Shown: positions 1,496-57,029 of the stretch, in pieces | How positions within the stretch are numbered: the stretch's first letter is position 1 | Layout: each line of letters opens with the position of its first letter | Assembly (NCBI GenBank): GCA_030636025.1 | Contig: DAOVXQ010000004.1 | Location: forward strand, 6,685 to 70,684 | Length of the DNA stretch: 64,000 nt | Origin: an archaeon | GTDB lineage: Archaea > Nanobdellota > Nanobdellia > Pacearchaeales > GW2011-AR1 | Reading direction: 5' to 3' | Made by a program: the position numbers and the translations under genes | Notes under the pieces: generated by a model | Databases searched by the model: none | What the model saw: the letters and a program-made list of their open reading frames with translations, nothing else | Told to the model about the DNA's origin: nothing

Positions 1496-1708
1496 TTAAT
1501 TCCCTAATTTTTTATACCCTAATCGTAAGAAACCCAGGTTTCTTAACAAGTTATCTTCCTGAGTATGCAATCTTCGATTGCTAACTGAAAATTCAAAAGA
1601 ATTTTCAGGATGTTGAGTTAAGATCTGGTTGTTTAATTTAATAATCCTCTCGTAAGAAAACCTAAGTTTTCTTACCAAGTCATCTTTCCTTTGATTTTGA
1701 AACTTCAA
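1496..1708 (-). CDS. orphan hypothetical protein ending LGYKKLGN
   Basis: ORF track; TTG start overlapping upstream TGA; C-terminus copies that of the upstream gene. Confidence 0.5.
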   Translation of the reverse strand: MKFQNQRKDDLVRKLRFSYERIIKLNNQILTQHPENSFEFSVSNRRLHTQEDNLLRNLGFLRLGYKKLGN

Positions 1709-1733
1709 TTCTGAAGTTTTTTATACCCTAACC
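1496..1733. repeat. imperfect direct repeat of a gene 3' end (1496-1524 vs 1705-1733)
   Basis: ttttttataccctaa identical at 1508-1522 and 1717-1731; both stop codons in register (offset 209). Confidence 0.8.
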
Positions 1734-2277
1734 AAATTAGAATTCCTAAAACCGCCCCTAAAATAAGTGTTCTTAACCAATTAGTTAAATCAGACCAGTA
1801 AATCGCGGTTCCATAAAAAGTAAGAAAAGTTCCGCCAATCATTAATCCAGAAGAAACACTGGGCAATATGAGAATTATTCCGACAGAGATTGAGAGTAGA
1901 CCTGTAATTATTGCAATAATAAATACCCTTAGCTTATATTTGTCCCTCGCTGTTTCGTATTTTTCTTGACATTCTATGTAATCAACTATTCCCTCACATT
2001 CTCCTGTTTCTTGGTTATAACTTTCATATCCTTTATTGATGCAACATTCGTTTCTGTAATCAGGGCTAACTGTTGCACAAGTTCCGCCGATTATTTCTTT
2101 GTTTTCTGGAATAAGTATCCTTGAAGATTCTTTTTCACAATAGTCCTCATATTTTGGAGAGGGATGAATTGTTTGAATAAAATAAATAACAAAAGAGGAT
2201 AAAACTATTGCGATGGTTATGCTTAGGATAATTGCCTTTACTTTGTTTGGCGGGATTTTGATTTTATTTTTTTTCAT
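1705..2277 (-). CDS. multi-pass membrane protein with Cys-rich extracellular loop
   Basis: 4 hydrophobic segments; start reassigned to ATG 2277 (MKKNKIK) because the longer ORF runs through a tRNA. Confidence 0.85.
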   Translation of the reverse strand: MKKNKIKIPPNKVKAIILSITIAIVLSSFVIYFIQTIHPSPKYEDYCEKESSRILIPENKEIIGGTCATVSPDYRNECCINKGYESYNQETGECEGIVDYIECQEKYETARDKYKLRVFIIAIITGLLSISVGIILILPSVSSGLMIGGTFLTFYGTAIYWSDLTNWLRTLILGAVLGILIWLGYKKLQN

Positions 2278-2303
2278 GGGGTATTTGATTATGGGTTTTA
2301 AAA

Positions 2304-2375
2304 TGGCTACACCAAGAGTTGAACTTGGGACCTCCTGCTCATGAGACAGGCGTTCTACCACTGAACTATGTAGCC
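2304..2375 (-). tRNA. tRNA with CAT anticodon (elongator Met or Ile2; not initiator)
   Basis: GGCTACA acceptor strand, anticodon arm CCTGT-CTCATGA-GCAGG, T arm GTTCAA; lacks the three G-C anticodon-stem pairs of initiators; CCA not encoded. Confidence 0.93.
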
Positions 2376-2425
2376 GTAAAATAGTTAGATAAAATAGATT
2401 TAAAAAGTTAATTGCATTTATATTT

Positions 2426-2785
2426 TTGAAAATGGGTGTGGAAAATATTACGAATTTAAGTGATTTTCAAATTGGGCTGAAAGATTTATTACCTGCAGAG
2501 GTTCTTGGACAGGTTGATAAACTTATTTTTATTTCAAAAATAGCAGTGTATATTTTTATTGGTTATGTTCTTTTTTTAATAATTAAACAGTTTTATGGTT
2601 GGAGGAGAAATAAGAGAATTAATATTATGTATCATAGGGTTAATGAAATTAATAAAAAGTTAGATTTGATATTAGAAAAAAAGAAAGTAAAATCTGAGCC
2701 AGTTAAAAAGAAAAAAAGATTTTGGAAGAGATTATTTGATAAAAAAGAAAAACGAAAAAATCAAGAAAAAAAAAGAAAAAAGTAA
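2426..2785 (+). CDS. single-TM protein with basic C-terminal tail
   Basis: ORF track; one TM helix; likely ATG 2432. Confidence 0.75.
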   Translation: MKMGVENITNLSDFQIGLKDLLPAEVLGQVDKLIFISKIAVYIFIGYVLFLIIKQFYGWRRNKRINIMYHRVNEINKKLDLILEKKKVKSEPVKKKKRFWKRLFDKKEKRKNQEKKRKK

Positions 2786-2788
2786 ATT

Positions 2789-2947
2789 TTATTTTTTTAT
2801 TTCTACGGTTTTTACTAATTGAGAAGTTTCTGAATCTTGCGGTCTTGAGATATTAGAGGCATATGCTCTAATAGGAATTTCTTCAATTCTTCCTTCAGAC
2901 GGATAGAAAATTCTTCCACTATATTCTTCTCTTGTGTCTTCTTCCAT
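2789..2947 (-). CDS. 52-aa small protein MEEDTREEYSGRIFYPSEGRIEEIPIRAYASNISRPQDSETSQLVKTVEIKK
   Basis: Below ORF-track cutoff; GGAGGG SD just upstream; convergent with previous gene. Confidence 0.55.
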   Translation of the reverse strand: MEEDTREEYSGRIFYPSEGRIEEIPIRAYASNISRPQDSETSQLVKTVEIKK

Positions 2948-3000
2948 TTTTTTGCCCTCCTGTTTAATTATTTTGGGCTAAACACTAATAATCGGACCGA

Positions 3001-3119
3001 TAATATTTGCATGTTAGAAATGTTGTATTAGGGTCCTCAAAAATTAATGAGAAGCCCCTTTCACAGCAATAGCTAAGGATTTTGCATAGACCTTAGTTTT
3101 TATTGCTTTTAACATATTA
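3001..3119. ncRNA. candidate structured RNA (three-way junction)
   Basis: Closing stem atgttagaa/ttttaacat; inner stems gggtcctca/tgag..gccc and agcaata-gctaagg/ccttagt-tattgct. Confidence 0.35.
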
Positions 3120-3129
3120 TAGAATGAAT

Positions 3130-3489
3130 TTATCCCTTTATTAATTTTATTGCTATTGTAGATACATGAATTCTTCTGCCTTCTTTGTTTTCAAAACTTT
3201 CGCTTGAAATTTGAATGTCGTCTACTTTTATGTTTTGTTCTTTTAAGAAAGTTCTTTTTGCGACCTCTACAACATCAACTGCCTTTGAAATGAATTTTCC
3301 CCTCGCTGATACAATAACTTCTTTTTGCTGTTTTGTCTGAAATTGTATTACAACCCCTGTAACATAATTCATAAATGGTTTTATGCCAATAAAAATTGTA
3401 TTATCTTTCTCCAAAGTTTCTGATTGGTTTTCAGAAGTGTCTTTTGTTTCTATCTTTTGTTCTTGCGTAGTTTCTGTTTCTTCTGTCAT
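3130..3489 (-). CDS. albA: DNA/RNA-binding protein Alba
   Basis: IFIGxKPFMNYV, ARGKFISKAVDV, VSTIxI motifs; acidic N-terminal extension. Confidence 0.95.
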   Translation of the reverse strand: MTEETETTQEQKIETKDTSENQSETLEKDNTIFIGIKPFMNYVTGVVIQFQTKQQKEVIVSARGKFISKAVDVVEVAKRTFLKEQNIKVDDIQISSESFENKEGRRIHVSTIAIKLIKG

Positions 3490-8101: not shown

Positions 8102-8155
8102 TTCAATAGTGAAAATAAGGTAAGAGTTTATTAACTATTTTATTTTAAAAAATTA

Positions 8156-8542
8156 ATGGCAATTAGATTTTTGAGAAATTATTTAAATGAACAATTAGAA
8201 GCGATTTTAAAACATAAATGGATTTTGTCTGAAAAAGCAAATGGAGATGTTGGGTTGGGTGCTACATTAATGGACTTAGAAAAACAAAGTTTTTTTAAAA
8301 AATTTAGAGAAGAGTATTTTAAAAAAAATAATATCACTGCATTAGATAGTCAGGTTAGAGAAATCATTGGGGGAGATTCTTGTTTGGTTTTTAATTTTGA
8401 ATTAATTGCACATAATTATAAAACAAATAGTGATAGTGTTTTGGAAAAAGAATCTTTAAGATATTGTTTAGAAAATAAAGAAAACTGTAAACATAGAAGT
8501 GAAATTTCTAAGGGGATTTATGCTTGTAATAGGGATTTTTAA
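8156..8542 (+). CDS. DUF4032-like domain protein
   Basis: ILKHKWILSEKANGDVG resembles the DUF4032 HKWxxSE motif. Confidence 0.6.
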   Translation: MAIRFLRNYLNEQLEAILKHKWILSEKANGDVGLGATLMDLEKQSFFKKFREEYFKKNNITALDSQVREIIGGDSCLVFNFELIAHNYKTNSDSVLEKESLRYCLENKENCKHRSEISKGIYACNRDF

Positions 8543-8608
8543 TTACTCCAAAACAGCTTTAATCCGTCTCACTCCTGCACTAGAAGATTCTTCTTTTTTT
8601 ATTTTGAA
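8543..8608 (-). repeat. displaced duplicate of alaS 3' end (FKIKKEESSSAGVRRIKAVLE*)
   Basis: 62/66 nt identical to 9707-9772, with a 51-bp perfect core (8555-8605 = 9719-9769). Confidence 0.95.
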
Positions 8609-8659: not shown

Positions 8660-9706
8660 ATGAAATCAACTTATAAACATAAACAAGGGATATATGGAAC
8701 TGATTCTGAAAATTATATTTCAAGTTTATTTATGATGGCGAAAAATCCCAATGGCAGTCGAAGACCTGATTTAATTTCTTTAAATGGGAGATTTAATCCT
8801 AATTTTTCAGTAGAAGTTAAATCTGGAAAATCTGCTAAAGGAATTATGGTTGATTATCAATTACCTTATTCTATTACTAGTGAACAAGATTATATTAAAT
8901 TATTTGGAGAATTTCCTTTAGAAGGCTCTGGCGAATATTTGGGTGAAAACTGGGGGACAATTAATCCTTTTTTTAATAAAAAAGCAGTAGCTTATTATTA
9001 TAATGTTGTAGATAGGGTTGATGGATTGAAGGCAGGTGATATGGACAGACCTTTTTCTTCGGTTAGATTAAAATGGGGAGATCAGTTTATGGTTCCTGAT
9101 GATTTTGCCTTTTACAATTTTGCGTGTGCTTGTTCAAGAAGAACTGGAAATGATATACAAAAAATTATAGTTAGCTTAAAAGAACAAATGAAAGAAGATT
9201 GTTTAAATGAATGTCCTTTAGATTATACTGTCAGAAAAGGAGAAACTAATTCTTGGCAGAATATTATTGGAAGAGATATTTTATCTATTTTTAATAATGA
9301 TATGGGTTTAGCTACAAGATATGGAAAAGAAAGAATTGAAAGACTGGCAGAGGTTTATAATTTAGATGGATTAAAACGAATTCAAATTCATGGGCCTCAT
9401 AAAACTAAAATTTATATTTTAGCTAAACCCGAGCATCAGAGATTAATGAATGGGCAGTTGAGGAAAGTTGTTAAGGAAAGGAAAGAAATTTTAGAAGAAA
9501 TTGTACAGGAAAGAAAAGAAGCAGAAGAATTATTGAATAAAATAACTGTTAAGAATTATCCGGGATTATTTGAAGGGTTGAGGGATTTAGAAATTTTACA
9601 ATCTAATTTAACAAGGGAAGAAATTTTAAAACTTGAAAGATTATGTAATTGGATGGCAGAAGGTGAGGAAAAAATTGAGCTTGTTGAGGATAATATTCCT
9701 TTTTGA
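8660..9706 (+). CDS. putative PD-(D/E)XK nuclease-fold protein
   Basis: G..SE...RRPDLIS...SVEVKSG motif; acidic C-terminal EDNIPF tail. Confidence 0.65.
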   Translation: MKSTYKHKQGIYGTDSENYISSLFMMAKNPNGSRRPDLISLNGRFNPNFSVEVKSGKSAKGIMVDYQLPYSITSEQDYIKLFGEFPLEGSGEYLGENWGTINPFFNKKAVAYYYNVVDRVDGLKAGDMDRPFSSVRLKWGDQFMVPDDFAFYNFACACSRRTGNDIQKIIVSLKEQMKEDCLNECPLDYTVRKGETNSWQNIIGRDILSIFNNDMGLATRYGKERIERLAEVYNLDGLKRIQIHGPHKTKIYILAKPEHQRLMNGQLRKVVKERKEILEEIVQERKEAEELLNKITVKNYPGLFEGLRDLEILQSNLTREEILKLERLCNWMAEGEEKIELVEDNIPF

Positions 9707-11452
9707 TTATTCCAGAATAGCTTTAATCCGTCTCACTCCTGCACTAGAAGATTCTTCTTTTTTTATTTTAAAAGTTCCGAGTTCACTTGTGTTTTTTACA
9801 TGAGGGCCTGCACAAATTTCTTTAGAAAAATTTCCAATGCTGTAAACAGAAACATTTGCACCATATTTATCTTCAAAAACCCCCTGAGCATCTTCTTTTT
9901 TAGCTTCTTCAAAAGTTTTGTGTTCACAAATTATTGGTAGTTTTTCCTGAATTTTTTTATTAACTAAATCTTCAACTGCTTGTTTTTCTTCTGAAGTTAA
10001 TTTTCTATCAAAATTAAAATCAAATCTTAATCTTTCTGCAGTTATATTTGAACCTTTTTGAAATATGTCTGGTTTTTTAAGAACTTCTCTTAATGCCTGA
10101 TTTAATAAATGTGTTGCAGTATGAAGTTTTTTTGTTGATTCTGAATTATCTACTAATCCTGATTTAAATTTTCCTTCTGTTGCTGTTTTTGAAAGTTGTT
10201 GATGAATTTTTTGTTTTTTATAAAATTCTTTTTCATTTACTTTAATTGATTTTTCATTTGCTAATTCAGTTGTAATCTCTAATGGAAATCCATAAGATTG
10301 ATATAATAAAAATGCATCTTTTCCTGAAAGTGATTTTTTATTTTTTGTTAATTTATTAAATATTTTTATTCCTTGTTCAATTGTCTGATTAAATTTTTCT
10401 TCTTCTTTTTCTAATTCATTTAGAATTTTATCCTTATTTTTTTGCAGGTGTTTATAATCATCATATATTTTGAAAATAGGTTTTGCAATTTTTTTTGTGA
10501 AATTAGTTAAACCAAGATTTTTTCCATGCCTAATTGCTCTTCTGATTAATCTTCTTACAATATATCCTTGTTCTAAATTTCCAGGAGGAATCCCGTCTGC
10601 AATTATAAATACTGCAGATTTAATATGGTCGGCGATTATTCGCATCGTTTTTTCGTTTCCTTTGTATGATTTTTTTGATTTTTTTTCTATTTGTTTTATT
10701 ATTGGCTGCCAAATTTCAGTTAAATAATTGTCTTCTAAATTATTTAATACTGCGATGGTTCTTTCAACCCCCATTCCAGTATCAATGTTTTTTTGTTTTG
10801 CTGGATTATAATTTCCTATTTCATCTTTATTATACTGCATTAAAACATCATTCCATATTTCTACCCAGTTTTTATCTTCTGGATTAAATTCTTTGGGGGC
10901 GGGTTTGTTATTTGATTTCCAATAAAACATTTCTGTATCTGGACCACAAGGGCCGGTTTTTCCTGCAGGACCCCACCAATTATCTTCTTTTCCTAAGAAT
11001 GCAATTCTTTGTTTTGGGATTCCTAAAGATTCCCAGATTTTTGCAGATTCTTCATCTTTTTGAGCATCTTTATCTCCTTTGAAAACTGTTACTGCTAATT
11101 TTTCAATAGGAATTTCCAGAACCTTTGTTAAGAATTCAAATGAAAATTTAATTGCATCTTTTTTAAAATAATCTCCTAAAGACCAGTTGCCTAACATTTC
11201 AAAAAAAGTGTGGTGGGTAGTATTTCCTACTTCATTAATATCTCCTGTTCTAATGCATTTTTGAACATTTACTAATCTTTTTCCTTGAGGATGTTGCTGT
11301 CCAAGAAGATAAGGAACTAAGGGGTGCATTCCTGCTGTTGTAAACAAAACTGTTGGGTCGTTTTCAGGAATTAAACTAGTATTAGGTATTTCTTTATGGT
11401 CTTTAGACTTGAAAAATTCAATATATTTTTTTATTAATTGTTTTCTGTTCAT
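9707..11452 (-). CDS. alaS: alanyl-tRNA synthetase, short form lacking C-Ala
   Basis: LFTTAGM, HHTFFEMLGN, IDTGMGVER, HTATH/CAGPH editing motifs; 581 aa. Confidence 0.98.
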   Translation of the reverse strand: MNRKQLIKKYIEFFKSKDHKEIPNTSLIPENDPTVLFTTAGMHPLVPYLLGQQHPQGKRLVNVQKCIRTGDINEVGNTTHHTFFEMLGNWSLGDYFKKDAIKFSFEFLTKVLEIPIEKLAVTVFKGDKDAQKDEESAKIWESLGIPKQRIAFLGKEDNWWGPAGKTGPCGPDTEMFYWKSNNKPAPKEFNPEDKNWVEIWNDVLMQYNKDEIGNYNPAKQKNIDTGMGVERTIAVLNNLEDNYLTEIWQPIIKQIEKKSKKSYKGNEKTMRIIADHIKSAVFIIADGIPPGNLEQGYIVRRLIRRAIRHGKNLGLTNFTKKIAKPIFKIYDDYKHLQKNKDKILNELEKEEEKFNQTIEQGIKIFNKLTKNKKSLSGKDAFLLYQSYGFPLEITTELANEKSIKVNEKEFYKKQKIHQQLSKTATEGKFKSGLVDNSESTKKLHTATHLLNQALREVLKKPDIFQKGSNITAERLRFDFNFDRKLTSEEKQAVEDLVNKKIQEKLPIICEHKTFEEAKKEDAQGVFEDKYGANVSVYSIGNFSKEICAGPHVKNTSELGTFKIKKEESSSAGVRRIKAILE

Positions 11453-35638: not shown

Positions 35639-35657
35639 GTATGATATCATACGAATA
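35639..35657. promoter_or_regulatory. palindromic operator GTATGATATCATAC upstream of TATA, copy 1
   Basis: 14-bp perfect palindrome; 19 bp identical to 35985-36003; TATAAA 3 nt downstream. Confidence 0.85.
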
Positions 35658-38957: not shown

Positions 38958-39121
38958 AATGATTATTGGGGACCGGCATTTATATAAGTTTTGGGTTGTT
39001 TGGTAATTGATTGGTTTAGTGAAGGGGTTTGTTTAAGCTTTTAATCGCGTTTAATCGCGGGTTGTAACTTAAGAGTGGTTAAAATAGAAACATTTATAAA
39101 GGAGGAATATTAGGGTTTTTC

Positions 39122-39559: not shown

Positions 39560-39997
39560 AATGAAAAAATTTAATTATAAAAAAGCACATGAGAGAGAAT
39601 TTAGGGAAGCAAAACTTAATCCTAAAGATTTTACGATTACTAATGAATTTTTTGGATTAAAAGTAAATGAAGATTTAAAATGGGTAAATGGAATAAATTC
39701 TAACACACCTAAATCGAAAAAAGTTTCTGGATTAGAAAAAATTTTTAGGGATGCAAATGATAAAATGGTAAAACTTGTTTGCACTATTTATTCTAATGGA
39801 ATTGATTCTTGTTCAGTTAAGGAATTAAAAGGAGTAGAATATGATCTTTCAAAAATTTATGAAAAATTAATAAATCATCATGATAAATATAAATCCTTAG
39901 TTAAAGACACTAATCCTGATTTTGAACAATCTGCAATGTTGATTTATAATATATTTGATAGAATAAATAAAAATATAAAAGGAGATAATTAAAATGA
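39547..39997. repeat. junction duplication ggaggataaataaaatga (39547-39564) / ggagataattaaaatga (39981-39997)
   Basis: SD + stop + A + ATG reproduced on both sides of the orphan. Confidence 0.7.
39561..39992 (+). CDS. orphan hypothetical protein inserted in the operon
   Basis: ATG 39561 after GGAGG; A-rich codon usage unlike its neighbours. Confidence 0.7.
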   Translation: MKKFNYKKAHEREFREAKLNPKDFTITNEFFGLKVNEDLKWVNGINSNTPKSKKVSGLEKIFRDANDKMVKLVCTIYSNGIDSCSVKELKGVEYDLSKIYEKLINHHDKYKSLVKDTNPDFEQSAMLIYNIFDRINKNIKGDN

Positions 39998-49997: not shown

Positions 49998-50048
49998 GAG
50001 AGCCAGAAAATAGATTCCAAATGGATAATCTAAAATCTGGCTCTCTTT
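49998..50048 (+). terminator. stem-loop after the beta-barrel gene
   Basis: gagagccaga/tctggctctc with inner tagatt/aatcta. Confidence 0.7.
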
Positions 50049-50075
50049 GAATTAAGAAAATATTAAATTTCTCTA

Positions 50076-50404
50076 ACTCTCGCGAAAGGGGGTGATGCCT
50101 ATGATTGTTAAATCCTTAGGCGTGTGTTATTAATACTTTTACACTCAGATGACTAACTAGTCAGAAAGGAGTAACCGTGAAAAAATTAGTAATTGTTAAG
50201 AACAACAAAACGAAGAAAAGCAAGAGATGATTCAAGAAAGAACGGAGTCATCTTAAAAATGAAGCCACGAAAAAGGAGATCTTTAATTAGTGTCATAATT
50301 AGGATCTCGGGTAAAAATTTTATGGTGGGATGAAGAAATTCTGTCGAATAGAATTAGGAGAGTTAGGGTCATAAGATGAAAGTCTACCTAACTCTCCCAC
50401 CCAC
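50076..50404 (+). ncRNA. candidate large structured RNA (at least 7 stem-loops)
   Basis: Seven stems plus a closing helix (listed under findings); G-U pairs favour the + strand; no ORF over 17 aa with SD. Confidence 0.5.
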
Positions 50405-50482
50405 ATTTATTTGATTTAGAACTTTTATTTTTTTTGCAAATTTTTTGATTTGAACATATTTTTTTTGCAAAATTACTGAAAA

Positions 50483-50731
50483 TTAGTAGATATTTTTTCT
50501 AAGTCCTATTTTTATGACACTGATTATTAATTTATTTTCTATTATTTGATAAATTATTCTATAATTTTTAATTCTTAATCTAAATAGTCCTGTTAGTTTT
50601 CCGATTAGTGGTTTTCCAATCTGTGGGTTTTGTTTTAGTTCTAAGATTTTTTTAAGAATTTTATTTCTTTCAAATTTGTCAATTTTTTTAAGAAATATTT
50701 CTGCTTTTTTTTGAAAATATAATTTATACAT
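50483..50731 (-). CDS. RelE/ParE family toxin
   Basis: GKPLIGKLTGLFRLRIKNYRIIY...IGLRKNIY. Confidence 0.92.
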   Translation of the reverse strand: MYKLYFQKKAEIFLKKIDKFERNKILKKILELKQNPQIGKPLIGKLTGLFRLRIKNYRIIYQIIENKLIISVIKIGLRKNIY

Positions 50732-51002
50732 CTTGATTGTCTAATTCTTTTTTTAAATCTTCAAAACTTATACCATAATTTCCTTTTTCAATTTCTTCAA
50801 GAGATTCTGCAATGTCCCGCATTGTTTCAGGGTCTGACAGGACTTCAATAGTTTCAATTAGGTTTTCTCTATCTGTATCTGCAGGGTTTGTTTTTTGAAT
50901 AACTCTTTCTAATAATTCGTTGTAAGTTTCTCTATGATGAATTTTTAATGAATCTAATTTTGATTTTACTTTTGTGTCTAACTGAATTGTGGTTATTGCC
51001 AT
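50724..51002 (-). CDS. antitoxin (RHH-like N-terminus, RelB-like C-terminus)
   Basis: TTIQL..KLDSLK..RETYNE; ETIEVLSD; overlaps the toxin start. Confidence 0.85.
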   Translation of the reverse strand: MAITTIQLDTKVKSKLDSLKIHHRETYNELLERVIQKTNPADTDRENLIETIEVLSDPETMRDIAESLEEIEKGNYGISFEDLKKELDNQDV

Positions 51003-51017
51003 TTTTTTGTTCTTGCT

Positions 51018-51050
51018 CTATAGTTAACCATAGTTTAATATAGTTTATAA
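51018..51050. promoter_or_regulatory. ATAGTT direct repeats over the TA promoter (probable autoregulatory operator)
   Basis: ctatagtt-aaccatagtt-taatatagtt-tataaa. Confidence 0.5.
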
Positions 51051-51104
51051 AAGTTTTGGGTTGGGTTGTATATTTAGATAAAGTTTTATTAAGTAATTTA
51101 TTCT

Positions 51105-52532
51105 ATGTTATTTATGGAGAAAATAAAATCAGGGATAGAAATTCATCAGCAACTTGATACGCATAAATTGTTTTGTAGTTGTCCTTGTGTTTTGAGAAAA
51201 GATGAGCCGGATTTTGTTGTGCAGAGGAGATTGCATGCTGTTGCCGGGGAGGGTGGAGAGATTGATGTTGCTGCTAAGTTTGAAGCAGAACAGGAAAAAG
51301 AATTTATTTATCAAGGTTATGATACAACTTGTTTGGTTGAGATTGATGAAGAACCGCCTCATGAAATTAATCAGGATGCATTGGAAACTGTTTTGCATAT
51401 TGCTTTGCTTTTGAATTGCGAGATTTTGCCTATTAGTCAGATTATGAGAAAGACTGTTGTGGATGGTTCGAATACTTCTGGTTTTCAGAGGACGGTTTTG
51501 ATTGCTCGGAAGGGTTATGTTGAAACTGAATCTGGAAAAGTTAGAATTGATAATATTTCTTTAGAGGAGGATTCTGCGAGGAAGATAAAAATAGAGAAGG
51601 GCAGGACTATTTTTAGGTTGGATAGGTTGGGGATTCCTTTGGTTGAGATTGGAACTGCACCAGATATTACAAGTCCTGAACAGGCGAAGGAAGTTGCTTT
51701 GCATATTGGGGATGTTTTAAGGAGCTGCAAGGTTAAGCGAGGGATTGGAACGATTAGGCAGGATGTGAATGTTTCTATTGAGGGGCATCCTCGTGTTGAG
51801 ATTAAAGGTTTTCAGGATATTAAAATGTTTATTCCAACTATTGAAAAAGAAGTCGAGAGGCAGGAAAAAAATTTAGTTGGAAAAAAAGATTTGAGAGGCG
51901 AGGTTAGAAATGCTTTGCCGGATGGAAGCAGTGAATTTTTGAGACCTATTCCTGGGTCTGCGAGAATGTATCCTGAAACAGATTTGCCTTTGCTGAAAAT
52001 TTCAAGGCAAATGATTAATAATGCTAAAGCAAGTTTGCCGAAGTTAAGAAGAGAGATAGAAAAAGATTTGGAGAAGAAAGGGCTTTCAGAGGATTTGATT
52101 AAATTATTAATTCGCAGTGGGAGGTTGGATAGTTTTGAGAATTTGTTGAAGGTTGTTAATGAGCCGAATTTTATTTTTAAGGTACTGGTTGAAATTCCAA
52201 AAGAGATTGGGTCGCATGATGGAATTAAGAATATCGACGGTGTTTTAAATTTGGATATTGTTGAGAGTATTGTTTCTGCTGTTAAAGAAAATAAAATAGA
52301 AAAAGGAGATGTTAAACATGTTATGGAAGAGATTGTTAAAGGGAAAAGTTTTGCAGATGCGATTGAAATTGAGAAAATTGATTTAGGGGATGTTGAAAAA
52401 GAGATTGCGAAGTTGGTTAAAGCAAAACCAGGGTTGAGTGTTGGAGGATATATGGGCTTGGTGATGCAGAATTTTAAAGGAAAAGTTAGTGGGAAAGAGG
52501 TTAGTGAGATACTTAGAAAGTTGATTAAATAA
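51105..52532 (+). CDS. gatE: Glu-tRNA(Gln) amidotransferase subunit E (short, no AspRS-like insert)
   Basis: GIEIHQQL, DGSNTSGFQRT, LDRLGIPLVEI, RMYPETD; 475 aa. Confidence 0.96.
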   Translation: MLFMEKIKSGIEIHQQLDTHKLFCSCPCVLRKDEPDFVVQRRLHAVAGEGGEIDVAAKFEAEQEKEFIYQGYDTTCLVEIDEEPPHEINQDALETVLHIALLLNCEILPISQIMRKTVVDGSNTSGFQRTVLIARKGYVETESGKVRIDNISLEEDSARKIKIEKGRTIFRLDRLGIPLVEIGTAPDITSPEQAKEVALHIGDVLRSCKVKRGIGTIRQDVNVSIEGHPRVEIKGFQDIKMFIPTIEKEVERQEKNLVGKKDLRGEVRNALPDGSSEFLRPIPGSARMYPETDLPLLKISRQMINNAKASLPKLRREIEKDLEKKGLSEDLIKLLIRSGRLDSFENLLKVVNEPNFIFKVLVEIPKEIGSHDGIKNIDGVLNLDIVESIVSAVKENKIEKGDVKHVMEEIVKGKSFADAIEIEKIDLGDVEKEIAKLVKAKPGLSVGGYMGLVMQNFKGKVSGKEVSEILRKLIK

Positions 52533-53065
52533 ACTTATAAACAATTAAAATCTGAAATTTTAATGGGAATGAATTTAATTGAAAAAGTTGATAAGGCAAT
52601 ATTAAAAAATGCTGAATTGAATTTTAAGATAATTAGTGAGGTTCCTGATTTTAAAACTTTTATTAAGAATTATGAAGAGAGTATTTGTAAATTATATGGA
52701 AGAAATGTTGGGCATGAATATTCTGATGGAGTCTGGAGACAGAATGGAAAATTGTTTATTCCTTATCAATTGTTTTTTTCAGAGGGAAATGAAGAAGAAA
52801 TTTTAAACTCTGATTGTGTTTATATTCCTAAAGAAGTTGTTGATAAACTTTCATGTAATTTGGAAATTAAAGATAATGTAAAAATTATAGATGAACAAGG
52901 ACATCCAACTGCATTAGATATATTTGTAAATTATAAATGCTCTAAGGAATTAGATTTTTATATTGCAGTTAATTATCCGAAAGATAAAAAAAGAGGGGCA
53001 AATCAAAATAGAAAAAGGGAAGTTACTACAGGTCCACTTGAGGTTTAATTAAATAAACTTATAAA
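52524..53065. repeat. 18-bp direct repeat attaaataaacttataaa (52524-52541, 53048-53065)
   Basis: Covers gatE last codons, stop and TATA; brackets the orphan gene. Confidence 0.8.
52563..53048 (+). CDS. orphan hypothetical protein
   Basis: ORF track. Confidence 0.7.
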   Translation: MGMNLIEKVDKAILKNAELNFKIISEVPDFKTFIKNYEESICKLYGRNVGHEYSDGVWRQNGKLFIPYQLFFSEGNEEEILNSDCVYIPKEVVDKLSCNLEIKDNVKIIDEQGHPTALDIFVNYKCSKELDFYIAVNYPKDKKRGANQNRKREVTTGPLEV

Positions 53066-53086
53066 TACTGAATTCTGAGTAGGATT

Positions 53087-54361
53087 ATGATAAGGACATA
53101 TATTAAAGATGGGTTTAAGAAAAAAGGCAAGGTAGAATTAAAGGGGTGGGTGCATGATATTCGTGATTTAAGTAAAATTAAGTTTCTTATTTTAAAGGAT
53201 ATTAGTGGAAGAATCCAGTGTATTGTACTGCCTAAAGAATCTGGTGAAGAGATTTTTAAACAGGTTTCTAAAATAAATAGGGAGAGTGTTGTCAGGGTTG
53301 TTGGAGAGTTGCAGGATAGTAAACAGGCGATTGGGGGAAAAGAACTTTTGATTAAAGAATTAGAAGTAATTTCTGAAGCAGAACAGCCATTGCCAATTGA
53401 TGTTTCAGACCATTCTAAAACAGAGTTGCCTAAAAGATTGGATTATCGGTTTTTAGATTTGCACAGGCCTAAATCTCAGGCGATTTTTAAAATTGAATCT
53501 ACAATGATGCAGGCATATAGAGAATTTATGATTAAGGAAGGCGGGATTGAAGCTGTTTTTCCTTCTATAATTGGAAGTTCAAGTGAAGGTGGAACAGAAT
53601 TATTTCCTTTGAAGTATTTTGAGAAAAAAGCATTTTTATCTCAGAGCTGTCAGTTATATAAGCAGATGTTAGCTTGTTCAATGGAAAAAGTATTTACTAT
53701 TTTTTGTGTTTGGAGAGCAGAGAAGCATAATACTGTTCGGCATTTGAATGAAGCAAGACAGTTAGATTATGAGGAATGTTTTGCAGATGAGTTTAAGGTT
53801 ATGGATGTTTTGGCGAGGTGTGTTCAGTATATTGTTAAGAAGATTATGGATGAGAGGGGGGAGGAATTAGAATTGCTTGATGTTAAATTAAAAGTTCCTG
53901 ATGTTAAATATATGACTTTTGCTGATTGCACTAAATTAATGAAAAAAGAAAAAGTTCATATGGGAAAAGATGATTTATCTACTGAAGCTGAAAAGCGGTT
54001 GGGGGAGTTATATCCTGATACAATTGTGTTTGTTCATGACTGGCCCCTCGCTGGTAAGCCGTTTTATATTATGCCTAAAGGAGATGGATTAAGTGGGGGT
54101 TTTGATGCTATTTATAATGGTGTTGAGATTTCATCTGGTGGGCAGAGGGTTCATATTCCTGATTTATTAATTAAGAGATTAAAAGAAAAAGGTTTGAATC
54201 CTAAGGATTTTAAGGGTTATATTGATAGTTTTAGATATGGAGCCCCAGAGCATGCGGGGTGGGGTGTGGGATTAGAGAGGTTGATGACTCAAATTTTAGG
54301 TATTGCAAATATACGAGAGGTCACTTTGTTTCCTCGGGATAGGGATAGGTTAGGGCCTTAG
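53087..54361 (+). CDS. aspS: aspartyl-tRNA synthetase, archaeal type (probably non-discriminating)
   Basis: GWVH, RFLDL, LSQSxQLYKQ, EISSGGQR, GLER, LFPRD. Confidence 0.97.
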   Translation: MIRTYIKDGFKKKGKVELKGWVHDIRDLSKIKFLILKDISGRIQCIVLPKESGEEIFKQVSKINRESVVRVVGELQDSKQAIGGKELLIKELEVISEAEQPLPIDVSDHSKTELPKRLDYRFLDLHRPKSQAIFKIESTMMQAYREFMIKEGGIEAVFPSIIGSSSEGGTELFPLKYFEKKAFLSQSCQLYKQMLACSMEKVFTIFCVWRAEKHNTVRHLNEARQLDYEECFADEFKVMDVLARCVQYIVKKIMDERGEELELLDVKLKVPDVKYMTFADCTKLMKKEKVHMGKDDLSTEAEKRLGELYPDTIVFVHDWPLAGKPFYIMPKGDGLSGGFDAIYNGVEISSGGQRVHIPDLLIKRLKEKGLNPKDFKGYIDSFRYGAPEHAGWGVGLERLMTQILGIANIREVTLFPRDRDRLGP

Positions 54362-54411
54362 TGTTGTAACTAAGTAGTGATGAATTATAGAAAGGTTTAT
54401 AAATGAAAAAT

Positions 54412-54765
54412 TCTAAGATATTTTAATTTAAAATGATAAATAAAAAATTTCAATCAATAGGTGAAAAATCAGGCTACGATCGTCCTTTGGAAATTGGTTC
54501 AGTCGAAGATTTGACGCTATCTTTTGACTTAGTTAGAGGGCCTGATAAGGATAGAGGATTCATTCAGAATTATTTAAATGAACATGGTTTTACAGGTTTG
54601 GAGGTTTATCGAGATTTTCGAGCTTCTTCTGTTTTTGGTTTGATGTCTTTTAAGGATTATTTAGGAATAGTAAAAGTGGAAAATCAGGATGTTTTTCCAA
54701 ATATCAGTAATCCTCTTTTTGAAACAAATAAAAAAATCTAAAAAATTTTAATTTAAAATGACAAA
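54412..54765. repeat. 29-bp imperfect direct repeat over start codons (54412-54440, 54737-54765)
   Basis: tctaagatattttaatttaaaatgataaa vs tctaaaaaattttaatttaaaatgacaaa (26/29). Confidence 0.75.
54433..54741 (+). CDS. orphan hypothetical protein
   Basis: ORF after TATA box aaggtttataaa. Confidence 0.65.
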   Translation: MINKKFQSIGEKSGYDRPLEIGSVEDLTLSFDLVRGPDKDRGFIQNYLNEHGFTGLEVYRDFRASSVFGLMSFKDYLGIVKVENQDVFPNISNPLFETNKKI

Positions 54766-55759
54766 ATATGGAATAATTTCAGATGTGCATAATGACCCTC
54801 TGATAGTTGCACCTGCGATAAGTGTTTTGAAAAATCAGGGTGCGGAGAAATTGATTTTGAATGGAGATATTGGAAACTGCCAGCAATTTGTTGGAAGTGT
54901 TTTGCAAATTGCAGGAAAATCTGAATTAGAAACTTATGTTCAGCCAGGGAGCCATGAAAAATTAGAAGATTTTGAACCTGTTATTGATTTTTTTAAAAAT
55001 AAATATTCTAACTTAGTTAATTGTGTTGAGAATAATAAAATAAGTTGTAAGGGGCATGATTTGATTTTTATGCCTGGAAGTGATTTTAGTTGTGGTGGAG
55101 AGTATGTTTTGAGTATGCAAAATGGAAGAGAATCTGGATTTTATCAAACAGATAATGGGAATATAAGATTAACAAATATGAGTGATTTGAGCAAGTTGGT
55201 TACAAATCCTGATAAAACAATTGTTGTTTGTCATGTTCCGAGAAAATTTGATGATGTAGAAAATGGAGTTGATATTTCTCATTTTCATCAACAAAGAGTA
55301 TATCATAGAGATTTCAAAGAAAATCCAAATAGATACACTTATACAGAATTATTAGTTCAACCCGGAACAATTCCAAGACAACAAATTGAAAATCAGGGAA
55401 TTAGAACCTTTCGATTAGAAGATTCAGAAGATTATATTTTAAATACAACCCTTAAATTAATGAAAAAAGAAGATATGGAAAAAATAGTTGTTTCTGTAGA
55501 AAGAAACTTAAACAGAGGAAATAAAGATTTGAAAAAGGTTTATGAAGAATTAGGAATTAAAAAAGCTGTGAGCGGACATTTTCATGAGTCAGGGCATCGG
55601 GCTTGTGACTGGGATGGAAATTCTGTTGAAGAGGGAAAGAAAGTTGATGAATTATTTTGGAATTCGGGTTATTGTGATGTCGGGCAGGTTGGTATTTTAG
55701 ATGTTCAGGGTTCTGAAGTTAGTTATCAGAATATTAGATTGCAAGATTATATAAAGTAG
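54758..55759 (+). CDS. calcineurin-like metallophosphoesterase with insertion
   Basis: SDVH, GD, GSHE, HVP, GHFHE. Confidence 0.88.
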   Translation: MTKYGIISDVHNDPLIVAPAISVLKNQGAEKLILNGDIGNCQQFVGSVLQIAGKSELETYVQPGSHEKLEDFEPVIDFFKNKYSNLVNCVENNKISCKGHDLIFMPGSDFSCGGEYVLSMQNGRESGFYQTDNGNIRLTNMSDLSKLVTNPDKTIVVCHVPRKFDDVENGVDISHFHQQRVYHRDFKENPNRYTYTELLVQPGTIPRQQIENQGIRTFRLEDSEDYILNTTLKLMKKEDMEKIVVSVERNLNRGNKDLKKVYEELGIKKAVSGHFHESGHRACDWDGNSVEEGKKVDELFWNSGYCDVGQVGILDVQGSEVSYQNIRLQDYIK

Positions 55760-55776
55760 ATTTTTTTATTTTTATT

Positions 55777-56574
55777 ATGGTAAAGATTCTTGCGATTGGT
55801 GACCCTCACGGAGCAATTGATAAAATTAAAAAAATTCCTATAAAAAATATAGATTTAATTTTATGTTCTGGAGATTTAGGTAATGCAAATTTGGCTAGAA
55901 AACTTTTTTTTGAAAATATGGATAGACAAAAACAGGGGCTTAAAAAAAAGGAGGCCTCTAATTTGTTGAGAAAGAGAATGTACATGGAATCTTACAAAAG
56001 TTCTATTAAAGTTATAAAATATCTTGCTAAATATGTTCCTGTTTATTTGATTTATGGAAATGCAGATTATAATAATTCTGATGTCAAAAAAATTTCAAAA
56101 AAGATAGGATATGATTTACCATTTATGACAAATGATTTGAAGAAGATTGAGGGTGTTAAAATTATTAATAATCGTGTTGTTAATTTTAAGGGAATTAGAA
56201 TTGGAGGTTTAGAATATTTTATTGATACTAATTGGGTTAAAGATTTTACTCCAAAAGATAAGGATAAAATGGTGAGAGCTAAAAAAGAAACTTTGAAGGC
56301 GAAAAATCATTTGAAACATTTTAAGGATGTTGATATTTTATTATGTCATCAGCCACCTTATAGGGTTTTGGATAAAAAAGGTCCGGGAGGACCAAAAGGT
56401 TGGCAAGGAAAACATGCAGGAAGCAAAGTTATTTTAGATTATGTTAAAAAGAAACAACCAAAATTAGTATTATGCGGACATATGCATGAGGCAATGGGAA
56501 GAAAGAAGATTAGTAAAACAGAGGTCGTGAATTTAGGGGCGATGGGTGGTTATGCTGTTTTTGAATTTGATTAA
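55777..56574 (+). CDS. Icc-like metallophosphoesterase
   Basis: GDPHG, GDL, GNAD, HQPP, HAGS, GHMHE. Confidence 0.92.
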   Translation: MVKILAIGDPHGAIDKIKKIPIKNIDLILCSGDLGNANLARKLFFENMDRQKQGLKKKEASNLLRKRMYMESYKSSIKVIKYLAKYVPVYLIYGNADYNNSDVKKISKKIGYDLPFMTNDLKKIEGVKIINNRVVNFKGIRIGGLEYFIDTNWVKDFTPKDKDKMVRAKKETLKAKNHLKHFKDVDILLCHQPPYRVLDKKGPGGPKGWQGKHAGSKVILDYVKKKQPKLVLCGHMHEAMGRKKISKTEVVNLGAMGGYAVFEFD

Positions 56575-56604
56575 TTTTAAATAGGTTGCAATGTAATTCT
56601 TTTT

Positions 56605-56841
56605 ATGGTATTAGATAAAAAAAAGATTGAGAAAGAAGCCAAGCAGATTTTAGATAAGTTTGTTTCTGCACTTTTAAAAGTAGAGCGAGAAGATGAAGAA
56701 GGTTATATTGATAGGGATGTTTTTGAAAGGGCTGAGGATTCTGGAAAAGAATGTGAAAAAGATTTTAAAAAAAAGATATTGAAAAATGCTCCTGAAAGTA
56801 ATGATGATTTTATAATTGTTGAAAGAGGTGGGTGGAAATGA
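56605..56841 (+). CDS. gatC: amidotransferase subunit C (archaeal-type)
   Basis: EAKQILDKF...ILKNAP...FIIVERGGWK; upstream of gatA. Confidence 0.75.
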   Translation: MVLDKKKIEKEAKQILDKFVSALLKVEREDEEGYIDRDVFERAEDSGKECEKDFKKKILKNAPESNDDFIIVERGGWK

Positions 56842-57029
56842 ATGTTGAGGGAATAATGAATAGATATGGTTTAGGGGTAGAGATTGCAAGAGTTTTGGTA
56901 GAGTCTTATGGGGTTTCGGGTAACCCTCGGGAATATGGATTTTATAGACAGAAAATGTTTGATGCAGGGCTTACGACTTGTGGTTTGGAAAATGCTTTAA
57001 ATTGTTTGGATGTTATATTTAAAAAATGA
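56838..57029 (+). CDS. orphan small protein between gatC and gatA
   Basis: ATGA overlaps at both ends. Confidence 0.6.
   Translation: MNVEGIMNRYGLGVEIARVLVESYGVSGNPREYGFYRQKMFDAGLTTCGLENALNCLDVIFKK

What the first reader, a model, noticed from the sequence alone, without database searches (positions are those of the whole stretch)
1496..57029. Orphan genes repeatedly inserted at conserved gene borders and bracketed by duplicated junctions, with no transposase in view
Seen in sequence: single orphan ORFs sit exactly at stop or start codons of conserved genes. Each is flanked by an imperfect direct repeat copied from that junction, not a shared element end. Cases: 1496/1705 (LGYKKLGN*/LGYKKLQN*); 8543/9707 (66-bp alaS end); 39547/39981 (SD+stop+ATG); 52524/53048 (18 bp, gatE end+TATA); 54412/54737 (29 bp, start context); 56836/57024 (AAATGA overlap, weak). 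Repeats differ in sequence and length and are slightly diverged, and the neighbouring gene always stays intact. Inference: a gene-acquisition process in which donor DNA from a relative recombines via the housekeeping gene and resolves by micro-homology, or a site-unspecific copy-in mechanism. Either way, housekeeping junctions act as reversible one-gene cassette slots. I know of no description of this as a genome-wide system in DPANN, but I cannot search the literature.
Basis: partly seen in the sequence, partly recalled or inferred. Interest (0 to 1): 0.85.

Follow-up and report, generated by a model that had tools for sequence, protein, structure and literature searches.

The report
Gene insertions bracketed by duplicated gene borders
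In this tiny archaeal genome many small lineage-specific genes sit between conserved genes and are flanked by a second copy of the neighbour's start or end, most likely the scar of homology-anchored, transposase-free insertion of DNA from relatives.

Summary
The repeats exist. Four of the six claimed sites exceed an orientation-matched null (sites at 1496/1705, 8543/9707, 52524/53048, 54412/54737). The sites at 39547/39981 and 56836/57024 do not.

Genome-wide, 28 of 940 ORFs are bracketed by a junction repeat, against about 2 expected. Intervals shifted by 250 nt give 0 and 3. A congeneric genome shows the same excess (23 of 1043 vs 2.3). A more distant relative shows it weakly (7 of 459 vs 3.3), and 250 kb of E. 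coli not at all (2 of 302 vs 1.6).

Bracketed ORFs are enriched among genes with no homolog in the congener (21 of 422 vs 7 of 518). Relatives keep the conserved backbone, but their slots are empty or hold other genes.

- Site 1 is a multi-copy structured repeat, so a shared element is involved there.
- The 348-aa "orphan" belongs to a rare PD-(D/E)xK nuclease-like family that recurs at 3' ends of housekeeping genes.
- Site 3 lies inside a roughly 12-kb island.

Best reading: additive, homology-anchored illegitimate or single-crossover integration of alternative slot alleles from relatives, filtered by selection in a very compact genome. Reversibility and a dedicated "system" are not shown.

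The parts
8527..8608 (-). Fossil copy of the alaS 3' end. Positions 8543-8608 hold the last 22 codons plus stop; 8527-8542 are 16 weakly similar bases beyond the stop. It abuts the stop of the 128-aa ORF.
   Evidence: D6, 82 nt, 89%; match to AlaRS residues 560-581, 91%; 62 of 66.
8156..8542 (+). 128-aa lineage-specific ORF, probably the earlier occupant of the LeuRS-AlaRS slot.
   Evidence: No Pfam or PHROGs hit. Not found in 11 relatives' slots. An 88%-identical contig of run X3 aligns to 7819-8540 and then departs.
8660..9706 (+). 348-aa gene of a rare family with an invariant D37, E52, K54 motif (PD-(D/E)xK nuclease-like). This is the inserted gene at site 2.
   Evidence: 12 homologs, 40-92% identity; AF2 pLDDT 70; weak top fold hits to EcoRV and Hjc, E about 0.07; positions in other genomes.
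9691..9772 (-). Functional copy of the junction: the 3' end of the intact alaS gene (9707-11452).
52521..52548 (+). GatB last codons, stop and TATA-like box. Left copy at site 4.
   Evidence: D20, 24 of 28; 18 of 18 core, null fraction 0.0021.
52563..53048 (+). 161-aa strict ORFan between GatB and AspRS.
   Evidence: No homolog in 300 other genomes of the order, nor in the 5.8-billion-protein search, which returned only the protein itself.
53045..53072 (+). Right copy at site 4, upstream of AspRS (53087-54361).
54401..54440 (+). Left copy at site 5: leader plus ATG plus first codons, used by the 102-aa ORF (54433-54741).
   Evidence: D12, 35 of 40; null fraction 0.0018.
54726..54765 (+). Right copy at site 5: leader plus ATG of the metallophosphoesterase gene 54758-55759.
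1507..1710 (-). Multi-copy structured repeat: one full copy (about 1517-1640) and one partial copy (about 1649-1710). Together they read as the 70-aa 'orphan'.
   Evidence: 6 full and several partial copies in G000, one weak hit in G016; three hairpins plus a closing helix; 8 of 30 pairs show compensatory changes; no Rfam match.
1496..1522 (-). Second copy of the last codons and stop of the ORF 1705-2361. The original copy is at 1705-1731.
   Evidence: sequence read directly, 21 of 27; 15 of 15 core.
39561..39992 (+). 143-aa ORF of claimed site 3. The junction similarity is not significant, and the ORF lies inside an island absent from G016.
   Evidence: null fraction 0.07.
56832..57029 (+). 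65-aa ORF between GatC and GatA (claimed site 6). It occupies a slot but shows no duplication, only ATGA overlaps.
   Evidence: null fraction 0.19; this gap is 0-695 nt in relatives.
38979..38998 (+). Left copy of a 20-nt repeat (19 of 20) that brackets a roughly 12-kb island. The right copy is at 51044-51063.
   Evidence: (no G016 homologs across 39122-49959).
35639..35657 (.). 19-nt palindrome-containing repeat, with a second copy at 35985-36003, bracketing a small ORF.
   Evidence: D11; 19 of 19, null fraction 0.0018.

Best explanation
These are scars of additive, homology-anchored integration. No enzyme for it is encoded in the inserted DNA.

Proposed steps (inferred): A piece of DNA from a related genome carries the same conserved flanking gene but a different gene in the slot. 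It recombines through the short conserved border. This happens either as a circularised fragment by a single (Campbell-type) crossover, or as a linear fragment with one homologous end and one illegitimate end (homology-facilitated illegitimate recombination). The incoming allele is stacked beside the resident one instead of replacing it, so the shared border ends up on both sides of the new gene.

Why the breakpoints hug stops and starts (inferred): The genome is extremely compact. The median gap at junctions empty in both genomes is 30 nt in G000 and 17 nt in G016. Only events that leave both essential neighbours whole survive. A duplicated start context also hands the newcomer a promoter, a ribosome-binding site and an ATG.

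Shown: the repeats, their excess, their placement at gene borders, the enrichment among non-conserved genes, variable and empty slots in relatives, and a stacked-allele structure.

Not shown: the identity of the donor, circularisation, the crossover, and later pop-out.
For: - Excess at gene borders: 28 of 940 vs about 2 in the null, and 0 and 3 in shifted intervals.
- Replicated in G016: 23 of 1043 vs 2.3.
- No excess in E. coli K-12: 2 of 302 vs 1.6.
- Enrichment among genes lacking a G016 homolog: 21 of 422 vs 7 of 518.
- Only 1 of 35 bracketed ORFs has an adjacent paralog. Apart from the 70-aa repeat-element ORF, none of the window's claimed orphans has significant DNA or translated similarity elsewhere in the genome; only short AT-rich matches appear.
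- Conserved backbones with variable slots: LeuRS-AlaRS gaps of 304-2844 nt in 11 relatives; GatB-AspRS-GatC-GatA.
- Of 277 syntenic junctions with G016, 45 are filled only in G000, 36 only in G016 and 68 in both.
- Stacked alleles in the proteasome-alpha/SBDS slot: [upstream-gene end, orphan 1, fossil SBDS start] followed by [copy of the upstream-gene end, orphan 2, SBDS start]. The two orphans are unrelated (E=1.1). This order cannot arise from a simple target-site duplication.
- In G016 the same slot holds a different orphan that begins with the first five SBDS codons.
- The 348-aa gene lies in the LeuRS-AlaRS interval in 3 of 14 other loci.
- G008 carries a 230-nt alaS 3' fragment, about 70% identical to its own alaS yet still an open frame. 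This is expected for a displaced allele from a diverged genome.
- At site 2 the differences between the copies cluster: 0 in the 51-nt core and 3 in the last 15 coding bases. This reads as a mosaic rather than uniform decay (read directly).
- RadA is present.
- Experiment in print: integration of circles by a single crossover duplicated the homologous segment in 56 of 60 clones (PMC3240628, passages read).
Against: - No donor or strain-level empty allele was seen for any window site. Only Logan contigs could be laid.
- The relatives' own slots show no strong junction repeats, and neither do 11 loci with homologs of the 348-aa gene. The scars are therefore either short-lived or rare.
- Homologies of 15-30 nt are short for RadA-dependent crossover.
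- The multi-copy structured repeat spreads within one genome and also sits between duplicated borders. A donor allele from a relative does not explain that.
- The 161-aa ORFan has no relative anywhere, so its ultimate source is unknown.
- A 93%-identical contig of run X2 stops matching exactly at the stop of the 348-aa gene. In that strain the gene may not abut alaS.
- The excess is weak in G020: 7 of 459 vs 3.3.
Confidence: 0.55

Rival explanations
1. Capture of foreign or transposed DNA at staggered breaks, or by microhomology-mediated template switching. Fill-in produces a target duplication of variable length. No homologous donor allele is needed.
For: The multi-copy structured repeat sits at several gene borders within one genome, with duplicated border sequence of about 10-27 nt. 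Repeat lengths vary from 15 to 55 nt in the scan, median 24, and reach 82 nt at site 2. Sites 4 and 5 have the simple form border-gene-border, which fits either model.
Against: The proteasome-alpha/SBDS slot has different borders to the left and right of each orphan, so it is not a simple target duplication. The G008 alaS fragment is 30% diverged yet open. Differences between the site 2 copies are clustered. Ku was not found, although the genome is only 86% complete.
Confidence: 0.2
2. Site-specific integration by a tyrosine recombinase acting in trans, or since lost. The repeats would be attL/attR, as for integrative elements at tRNA genes.
For: On contig C6, two single genes (a GT2 glycosyltransferase and a PL14-like lyase) follow tRNA-Val, each followed by a copy of the tRNA 3' part: 43 of 45 and 20 of 20. 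The genome has two Xer-like recombinases. The 12-kb island has a weak Phage_int_SAM_1 hit and a 19-of-20 bracket.
Against: The repeats share no common core between sites. The cross-gene null would otherwise be high. No recombinase lies within the small inserts. Lengths and positions vary.
Confidence: 0.1
3. Chance plus shared expression signals (TATA box, Shine-Dalgarno, ATGA overlaps) in an AT-rich genome.
For: Sites 3 and 6 fall within the null, at 0.07 and 0.19. Several scan hits are only 15-18 nt long.
Against: Both the orientation-matched null and the shifted-interval control are exceeded roughly ten-fold. Repeats of 26-82 nt include coding sequence of the neighbour.
Confidence: 0.05
4. 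Local tandem duplication followed by rapid divergence or frame change, so that the orphans are born from their neighbours.
For: The duplicated borders are in tandem register with the gene length. Some orphans reuse the neighbour's ATG and first codons.
Against: No residual similarity between orphans and neighbours at the protein level (1 of 35) or at the DNA or six-frame level. The borders are 85-100% identical while the bodies are unrelated.
Confidence: 0.05
5. Assembly artefact: two strain haplotypes were joined through a shared k-mer.
For: The Logan contigs of the source run end inside both site 2 copies, at 8584 and 9748, as expected at any exact repeat longer than k.
Against: The exact core is 51 nt, shorter than a read. 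The copies differ outside the core. After copy 1 the sequence is not alaS. The same excess occurs in an independent 6-contig genome. The depths of the contigs on either side are similar, 11.6-13.9.
Confidence: 0.03

Closest known systems
Single-crossover (Campbell-type) integration and homology-facilitated illegitimate recombination (de Vries and Wackernagel 2002; Prudhomme 2002; Meier and Wackernagel 2003, seen as references in PMC5361080; experiment in PMC3240628, passages read)
   Same: Foreign DNA joined to a short homologous anchor is added to the chromosome without any element-encoded enzyme. A single crossover of a circle duplicates the anchor on both sides of the insert.
   Different: The anchors here are only 15-82 nt. 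They lie exactly at gene borders, recur across about 3% of ORFs, and are seen in natural DPANN genomes rather than in transformation or conjugation assays. The mechanism is inferred, not observed.
C-terminal displacement and orphan arrays at Rhs, CDI and T6SS effector-immunity loci (Jackson 2009, cited in PMC5361080; Kirchberger 2017, PMC5361080, passages read)
   Same: An incoming allele recombines in the conserved part of a gene and pushes the old 3' end downstream, where it stays as a fossil beside the former neighbour. Repeated events build arrays.
   Different: The genes here are housekeeping genes (alaS, ribosomal protein S12, thermosome, SBDS, tRNA-Val), not polymorphic toxins. There are no toxin-immunity pairs, and start contexts are displaced as well as ends.
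PeSL cassettes of T4-type phages (Arbiol 2010, PMC2839356, abstract read)
   Same: Single ORFans are bracketed by short repeats that carry promoter function. Recombination between the repeats shuffles genes and can release mini-circles.
   Different: PeSLs are one conserved motif shared by all cassettes. Here each pair of repeats is specific to its locus and copied from the neighbouring gene. No circles have been shown.
Integrative elements at tRNA genes (attL/attR duplication of the tRNA 3' part)
   Same: The tRNA-Val array on contig C6 has the classical anatomy: an intact tRNA plus displaced 3' fragments.
   Different: Each unit holds a single cargo gene of about 1 kb and no integrase. The same anatomy occurs at protein-gene starts and ends.
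Integron gene cassettes
   Same: One-gene, promoterless-looking units are stacked at a fixed place.
   Different: No shared attC-like site. No IntI next to the arrays. There are many insertion places rather than one.
Free-standing homing endonuclease genes between conserved phage genes (recalled, not searched)
   Same: The 348-aa nuclease-like gene is patchily distributed and sits against the 3' ends of AlaRS, SerRS or thermosome genes in different genomes.
   Different: The nuclease fold is supported only weakly. There is no evidence of cleavage or homing, and homing itself would not duplicate the junction.
Rickettsia palindromic elements and MITEs (recalled)
   Same: The site 1 repeat is short, structured and multi-copy, lacks its own enzyme, and is inserted so that an open reading frame is kept.
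   Different: No terminal inverted repeats or fixed target duplication were seen. Copies lie at gene borders, often just upstream of translation or transcription genes, so a leader-RNA function is equally possible.

Membership tests
Homology-anchored additive integration (single crossover or HFIR) | The insert is flanked by a direct duplication of a chromosomal segment that served as the anchor. | tested here: met
   Sites 1, 2, 4 and 5; 28 of 940 ORFs genome-wide.
Homology-anchored additive integration (single crossover or HFIR) | The donor molecule carries the same anchor next to the inserted gene. | tested here: inconclusive
   Indirect only. The 348-aa gene lies in the LeuRS-AlaRS interval in 3 of 14 loci. 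The proteasome-alpha/SBDS slot shows stacked alleles. No donor was identified.
Homology-anchored additive integration (single crossover or HFIR) | An illegitimate joint at a microhomology (HFIR), or a circular intermediate (single crossover). | not testable with these tools
   This needs donor sequence or raw reads. Only contigs were served.
Rhs/CDI/T6SS-type C-terminal displacement | A displaced 3' fragment of the gene lies downstream of the intact gene. | tested here: met
   alaS in G000 and in G008; the end of ribosomal protein S12 and tRNA-Val.
Rhs/CDI/T6SS-type C-terminal displacement | A polymorphic toxin tip with a cognate immunity gene. | tested here: not met
   The neighbours are aminoacyl-tRNA synthetases, GatB and a phosphoesterase. 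The orphans have no Pfam hits.
Integron | A shared attC recombination site on every cassette and an adjacent IntI integrase. | tested here: not met
   The repeats are locus-specific (cross-gene null). The only PF00589 hits are two Xer-like genes on contigs C2 and C7.
Transposon, IS or MITE | A transposase or TnpB, terminal inverted repeats, and a fixed-length target duplication. | tested here: not met
   No PF07282 hit above the cut-off. Duplication lengths range from 15 to 82 nt. At site 1 multi-copy status is met, but the flanks of other copies are weak.
tRNA-targeting integrative element | att duplication of the tRNA 3' part plus an integrase gene inside the element. | tested here: not met
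   The duplication is present at tRNA-Val on C6. The cargo genes are GT2 and PL14-like, with no integrase.
PeSL-type regulatory cassettes | One conserved promoter-terminator motif flanks many ORFans. | tested here: not met
   Left borders do not match the right borders of other genes (null of 2 per 933).
PD-(D/E)xK nuclease (the 348-aa gene) | A catalytic D...(D/E)xK motif within the restriction-endonuclease-like fold. | tested here: inconclusive
   D37, E52 and K54 are invariant in 11 sequences. All top Foldseek hits are EcoRV, Hjc or SPARDA nucleases, but at E of 0.07 or weaker. No Pfam hit.

The most novel reading that the evidence does not exclude
The junction repeats are working parts, not just scars. 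Recombination between them would release one-gene circles that keep one copy of a conserved gene border. Any relative with the same border could take the circle up by a single crossover. Housekeeping gene borders would then act as a shared address system for transposase-free gene exchange in populations of these DPANN archaea. The structured multi-copy repeat and the nuclease-like 348-aa gene would be selfish riders on the same route.
Probability: 0.15. Interest if true: 0.8.

Novelty: new variant of a known kind. Interest (0 to 1): 0.5.

Why it matters
DPANN archaea have tiny, tightly packed genomes. Up to half of their ORFs are nevertheless lineage-specific, and classical mobile elements are scarce. 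How new genes enter such genomes is poorly documented.

A replicated, quantifiable scar would give a concrete route for gene gain. About 3% of ORFs in G000 are bracketed by the neighbour's own border, and about 5% of those without a homolog in the congener. The scar would also explain why insertions sit exactly at stops and starts.

It provides a simple marker for recent acquisitions in metagenome-assembled genomes. It also makes a testable prediction for long-read population data: presence/absence alleles and circles at defined junctions.

Four literature searches found no description of this pattern for DPANN. Most subscription journals are not in that library.

Tried and rejected
Tandem paralogy as the cause: only 1 of 35 bracketed ORFs (score >=16) has an adjacent paralog.

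Orphans derived from neighbouring DNA: blastn (word size 7) and tblastx of seven window ORFs against the genome gave only AT-rich noise, except for the 70-aa repeat element.

A fossil of the LeuRS end upstream of the 348-aa gene: the alignment scored below shuffled sequence.

Junction repeats around homologs of the 348-aa gene: none in 10 of 11 loci, and one 13-nt match in the other. In relatives' GatB/AspRS/GatC/GatA slots, 18 slots were examined and none scored above 16.4.

Composition as a sign of foreign origin: bracketed orphans have median GC 0.298, other orphans 0.294 and conserved genes 0.319. The differences are not significant.

Read evidence: only Logan contigs were served. The body of the 348-aa gene (bin 8672-9338) has little contig depth in runs X3 and X4 while its flanks are covered. 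A part without cover is no evidence, and no contig was shown to join across it. Joints listed at 8609>10665 in X2 and X4 carry 18 extra letters and were obtained at 85% likeness, so I treat them as unreliable.

Rfam: no family matched the structured repeat.

PHROGs: nothing for the orphans apart from one weak hit (E=0.007) for the 143-aa ORF.

PDB sequence search of the 224-aa island ORF: nothing.

Foldseek for the 348-aa model: no hit at E<=0.001.

Literature: searches gave analogues but no description of this pattern. Supplements are closed and were not consulted.

The metagenome-contig scan, complex prediction, the protein-atlas search and the search of protein representatives were not used.

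Full report
**What the window is**

The window is G000:C14:6685-70684. The assembly has 17 contigs, 733,590 bp and about 31% GC. GTDB-type relatives exist only at about 65-76% amino-acid identity for AlaRS and AspRS. Records that carry the nearest homologs of one window gene are labelled Pacearchaeota, Woesearchaeota or Nanoarchaeota. The window's own name was not given.

**Checking the observation**

All six quoted repeats are in the sequence. The repeat finder independently reports three of them:
- site 2: 82 nt, 89% identity
- site 5: 40 nt, 88%
- site 4: 28 nt, 86%

To ask whether this exceeds chance I called 952 ORF-genes by a greedy longest-ORF rule. For the 940 not too close to a contig end, I scored the best ungapped match between the left border (-80 to +60) and the right border (-60 to +80).

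The null pairs the left border of one gene with the right border of another gene in the same strand context. It therefore keeps promoters, Shine-Dalgarno sequences, stops and base composition.
- At score >=18 there are 28 of 940 observed, against 2.0 per 933 in the null.
- Sliding every interval by +250 or -250 nt gives 0 of 935 and 3 of 934. The repeats are therefore tied to gene borders and to a spacing of one gene length.

Per site:

| Site | Null fraction |
|---|---|
| 1 | 0.0036 |
| 2 | 0.0018 |
| 4 | 0.0021 |
| 5 | 0.0018 |
| 3 | 0.07 |
| 6 | 0.19 |

Site 3 is a Shine-Dalgarno sequence plus ATG. Site 6 is the common ATGA stop/start overlap. Neither counts as a duplication.

**Replication and controls**

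- G016 is a congener whose whole 930-kb genome I fetched. It gives 23 of 1043 against 2.3. Shifted intervals give 10 and 5, because that genome has repetitive proteins.
- G020 is in the same order but another family; 400 kb were examined. It gives only 7 of 459 against 3.3, with shifted intervals at 2 and 2.
- Five 50-kb stretches of E. coli K-12 give 2 of 302 against 1.6. Both hits are a repetitive adhesin and a REP-like sequence.

The pattern is real, strong in this genus, weak further away, and absent from the E. coli sample.

**Are the bracketed genes the non-conserved ones?**

Yes. Of the ORFs with no blastp or tblastn hit (E<=1e-3) in G016, 21 of 422 are bracketed. Of those with a hit, 7 of 518 are. 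Fisher p=0.0016.

Only 1 of 35 ORFs scoring >=16 has an adjacent paralog. The window orphans have no DNA or six-frame similarity elsewhere in the genome, apart from the 70-aa ORF.

**What relatives show**

- LeuRS followed by a convergent AlaRS is conserved in 11 relatives. The interval is 304-2844 nt and holds different small genes. Neither the 128-aa nor the 348-aa ORF was found in any of them.
- GatB-AspRS-...-GatC-GatA is conserved in 8 relatives. GatC|GatA gaps run from 0 to 695 nt, and GatB|AspRS from 100 to 2033 nt. None of the window's orphans was found there.
- Across the whole genomes there are 434 reciprocal best hits defining 277 syntenic junctions. Of these, 128 are empty in both genomes, 45 filled only in G000, 36 only in G016 and 68 in both (odds ratio 5.4).
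- In 14 of those 68, the occupants keep residual similarity above the 95th percentile of cross-slot pairs (3.4 expected). Most co-occupied slots therefore hold unrelated or unrecognisable genes.
- For two bracketed orphans elsewhere in G000, the G016 junction is empty, with gaps of 1 nt and 234 nt.
- The relatives' slots carry no strong repeats.

**Anatomy that bears on mechanism**

(a) Site 2. The last 66 nt of alaS, plus 16 weakly similar bases, lie a second time 1,164 nt downstream, directly against the stop of the 128-aa ORF. The 348-aa gene lies between the copies and abuts the intact alaS. The copies are identical over a 51-nt core. They differ at 3 of the last 15 coding bases and beyond. 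That is a mosaic, not even decay.

(b) The proteasome-alpha/SBDS slot on contig C2 reads: end of the upstream gene, orphan 1, fossil of the SBDS start (15 of 15); then about 30 nt; then a copy of the upstream gene's end (22 of 26), orphan 2 and the real SBDS start. The two orphans are unrelated, E=1.1. Each orphan thus carries the left flank on its left and the right flank on its right. Two alternative alleles of one slot joined in tandem give exactly this. A simple target-site duplication does not.

(c) In G016 the same slot holds a third, different orphan that starts with the first five SBDS codons.

(d) Other cases in G000:
- Three successive orphans upstream of the thermosome gene each begin with its start context.
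- The end of ribosomal protein S12 is duplicated behind a 98-aa orphan.
- The FtsZ upstream region is duplicated around a 104-aa orphan.
- Behind tRNA-Val, two single cargo genes are each followed by a copy of the tRNA 3' part, with no integrase.

(e) G008 has a 230-nt alaS 3' fragment 1.3 kb beyond its alaS. It is about 70% identical to that alaS but still an open frame. This is expected if the fragment diverged as part of a working gene in another genome.

**The inserted genes**

The 161-aa ORF is a strict ORFan. It was not found in 300 other genomes of the order, and it matched only itself among 5.8 billion proteins.

The 348-aa gene is not an orphan.
- It has 12 homologs at 40-92% identity.
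- D37, E52 and K54 are invariant.
- The AF2 model has pLDDT 70. Its best fold matches are all PD-(D/E)xK nucleases (EcoRV, Hjc), but only at E about 0.07.
- In 14 other genomes it lies in the LeuRS-AlaRS interval three times, convergent on the thermosome gene twice, and convergent on SerRS twice. It is never bracketed there.

**Site 1 is different**

The 70-aa ORF consists of one and a third copies of a roughly 125-nt repeat.
- G000 holds six full copies. G016 has one weak hit.
- It folds into three hairpins plus a closing helix. Of 30 pairs, 8 change on both sides, but only five sequences were available.
- No Rfam family matches.
- Copies lie just upstream of Spt5, L11 and an L44e-like gene. 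In G016, Spt5 and L11 are separated by only a few bases with no element between them.
- The ORF whose end is duplicated at site 1 is itself non-conserved and follows tRNA-Met. G016 has 200 nt there, against 808 nt in G000.

**Site 3 and the island**

Positions 39122-49959 have no G016 homologs and a higher GC content. The region encodes an FtsK/HerA-like ATPase, a PKD-repeat protein and an ORF with a weak integrase N-domain hit. It is bracketed by a 19-of-20 repeat at 38979/51044. The 'conserved' neighbour at site 3 belongs to this island.

**Mechanism**

The best-supported reading is homology-anchored additive integration of slot alleles from relatives. This could be a single crossover of a circularised fragment, or one homologous end plus one illegitimate end. 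Selection in a genome with 17-30-nt gaps would then keep only events that spare both neighbours.

- RadA is present. Ku was not found, though the genome is 86% complete.
- Two Xer-like recombinases lie on other contigs. No TnpB hit passed the cut-off.
- In print, single-crossover integration of circles duplicated the homologous segment in 56 of 60 E. coli clones (PMC3240628, passages read).
- HFIR has been proposed for the displacement arrays at T6SS and Rhs loci (PMC5361080, passages read).
- PeSL repeats shuffle ORFans and release mini-circles in T4-type phages (PMC2839356, abstract read).

Against this reading:
- No donor or empty strain allele was seen.
- The anchors are short.
- The intragenomic spread of the structured repeat suggests that a donor-independent capture process also operates.

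**Read data**

Only Logan contigs were available.
- The source run's contigs end inside both site 2 copies, as expected for an exact repeat longer than k.
- An 88%-identical contig in run X3 matches 7819-8540 and then departs.
- A 93%-identical contig in run X2 matches 9175-9708 and then departs.

Gene borders are therefore breakpoints of similarity between strains. No contig was shown to bridge an empty site.

**Verdict**

A relative as donor with homology-plus-illegitimate resolution is the best fit. Reversibility and a 'system' are unshown.
- It is a new variant of known processes rather than a new kind of system.
- Interest is moderate. It offers a concrete, testable route for ORFan gain in compact DPANN genomes.

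Noticed in passing
window 1507-1710 (-); also G000 C9:103460-103607, C9:104166-104302, C2:70111-70342, C2:76021-76195, C11:20139-20290: A structured repeat of about 125 nt: three hairpins with compensatory changes, and a conserved linker. It has at least 6 copies in this genome and only one weak hit in congener G016. There is no Rfam match. Copies sit directly upstream of Spt5, L11 and an L44e-like gene, and they keep an open frame. It could be a mobile RPE/MITE-like element or a leader RNA.
   Followed up: partly
window 38979-51063: An island of about 12 kb, absent from G016 and with higher GC. It is bracketed by a 19-of-20-nt repeat. It encodes an FtsK/HerA-like ATPase, a 1123-aa PKD-repeat protein, an ORF with a weak integrase N-domain (SAM-like) hit at 48927-49226, and a ParE-like toxin with a putative partner at 50483-51002. 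The ParE-like pair does have homologs elsewhere in G016.
   Followed up: partly
G000 C6:81578-83520 (locus L099): tRNA-Val is followed by a GT2 glycosyltransferase gene and a polysaccharide-lyase-14-like gene. Each of the two is followed by a copy of the tRNA 3' part (43 of 45 and 20 of 20 nt). No integrase is present.
   Followed up: partly
loci L013, L017, L018, L022 (LeuRS genes of relatives): tblastn matches to the window's LeuRS are interrupted by roughly 450-590 nt at about residues 238-241 and 360. The window's gene lacks these stretches. They may be inteins or inserted domains.
   Followed up: no
window 35639-35657 and 35985-36003: A perfect 19-nt repeat containing a 12-nt palindrome occurs twice, 346 nt apart, between divergent genes. 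It may be an operator pair rather than an insertion scar.
   Followed up: no
window 9707-11452 (-): AlaRS is only 581 aa, comprising the catalytic and second additional domains. It has this length throughout the genus, so it is shorter than typical archaeal AlaRS (the typical length is recalled, not tested).
   Followed up: no
locus L019 (G008:C39) 1936-3392: In G008 a 356-aa convergent gene follows alaS, and after it comes a diverged but open 230-nt alaS 3' fragment close to the contig end. This is a second species with a displaced alaS end.
   Followed up: partly
window 17427-22616 (+): A 1729-aa ORF with long internal DNA repeats: units of about 66-69 nt and blocks of about 1.16-1.33 kb.
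   Followed up: no
G016 C3:207413-207841 and C5:140794-141802: The strongest bracketed cases in the congener. One is a 142-aa ORF between 62-nt repeats. The other is a run of three small genes that share 25-59-nt start contexts.
   Followed up: no
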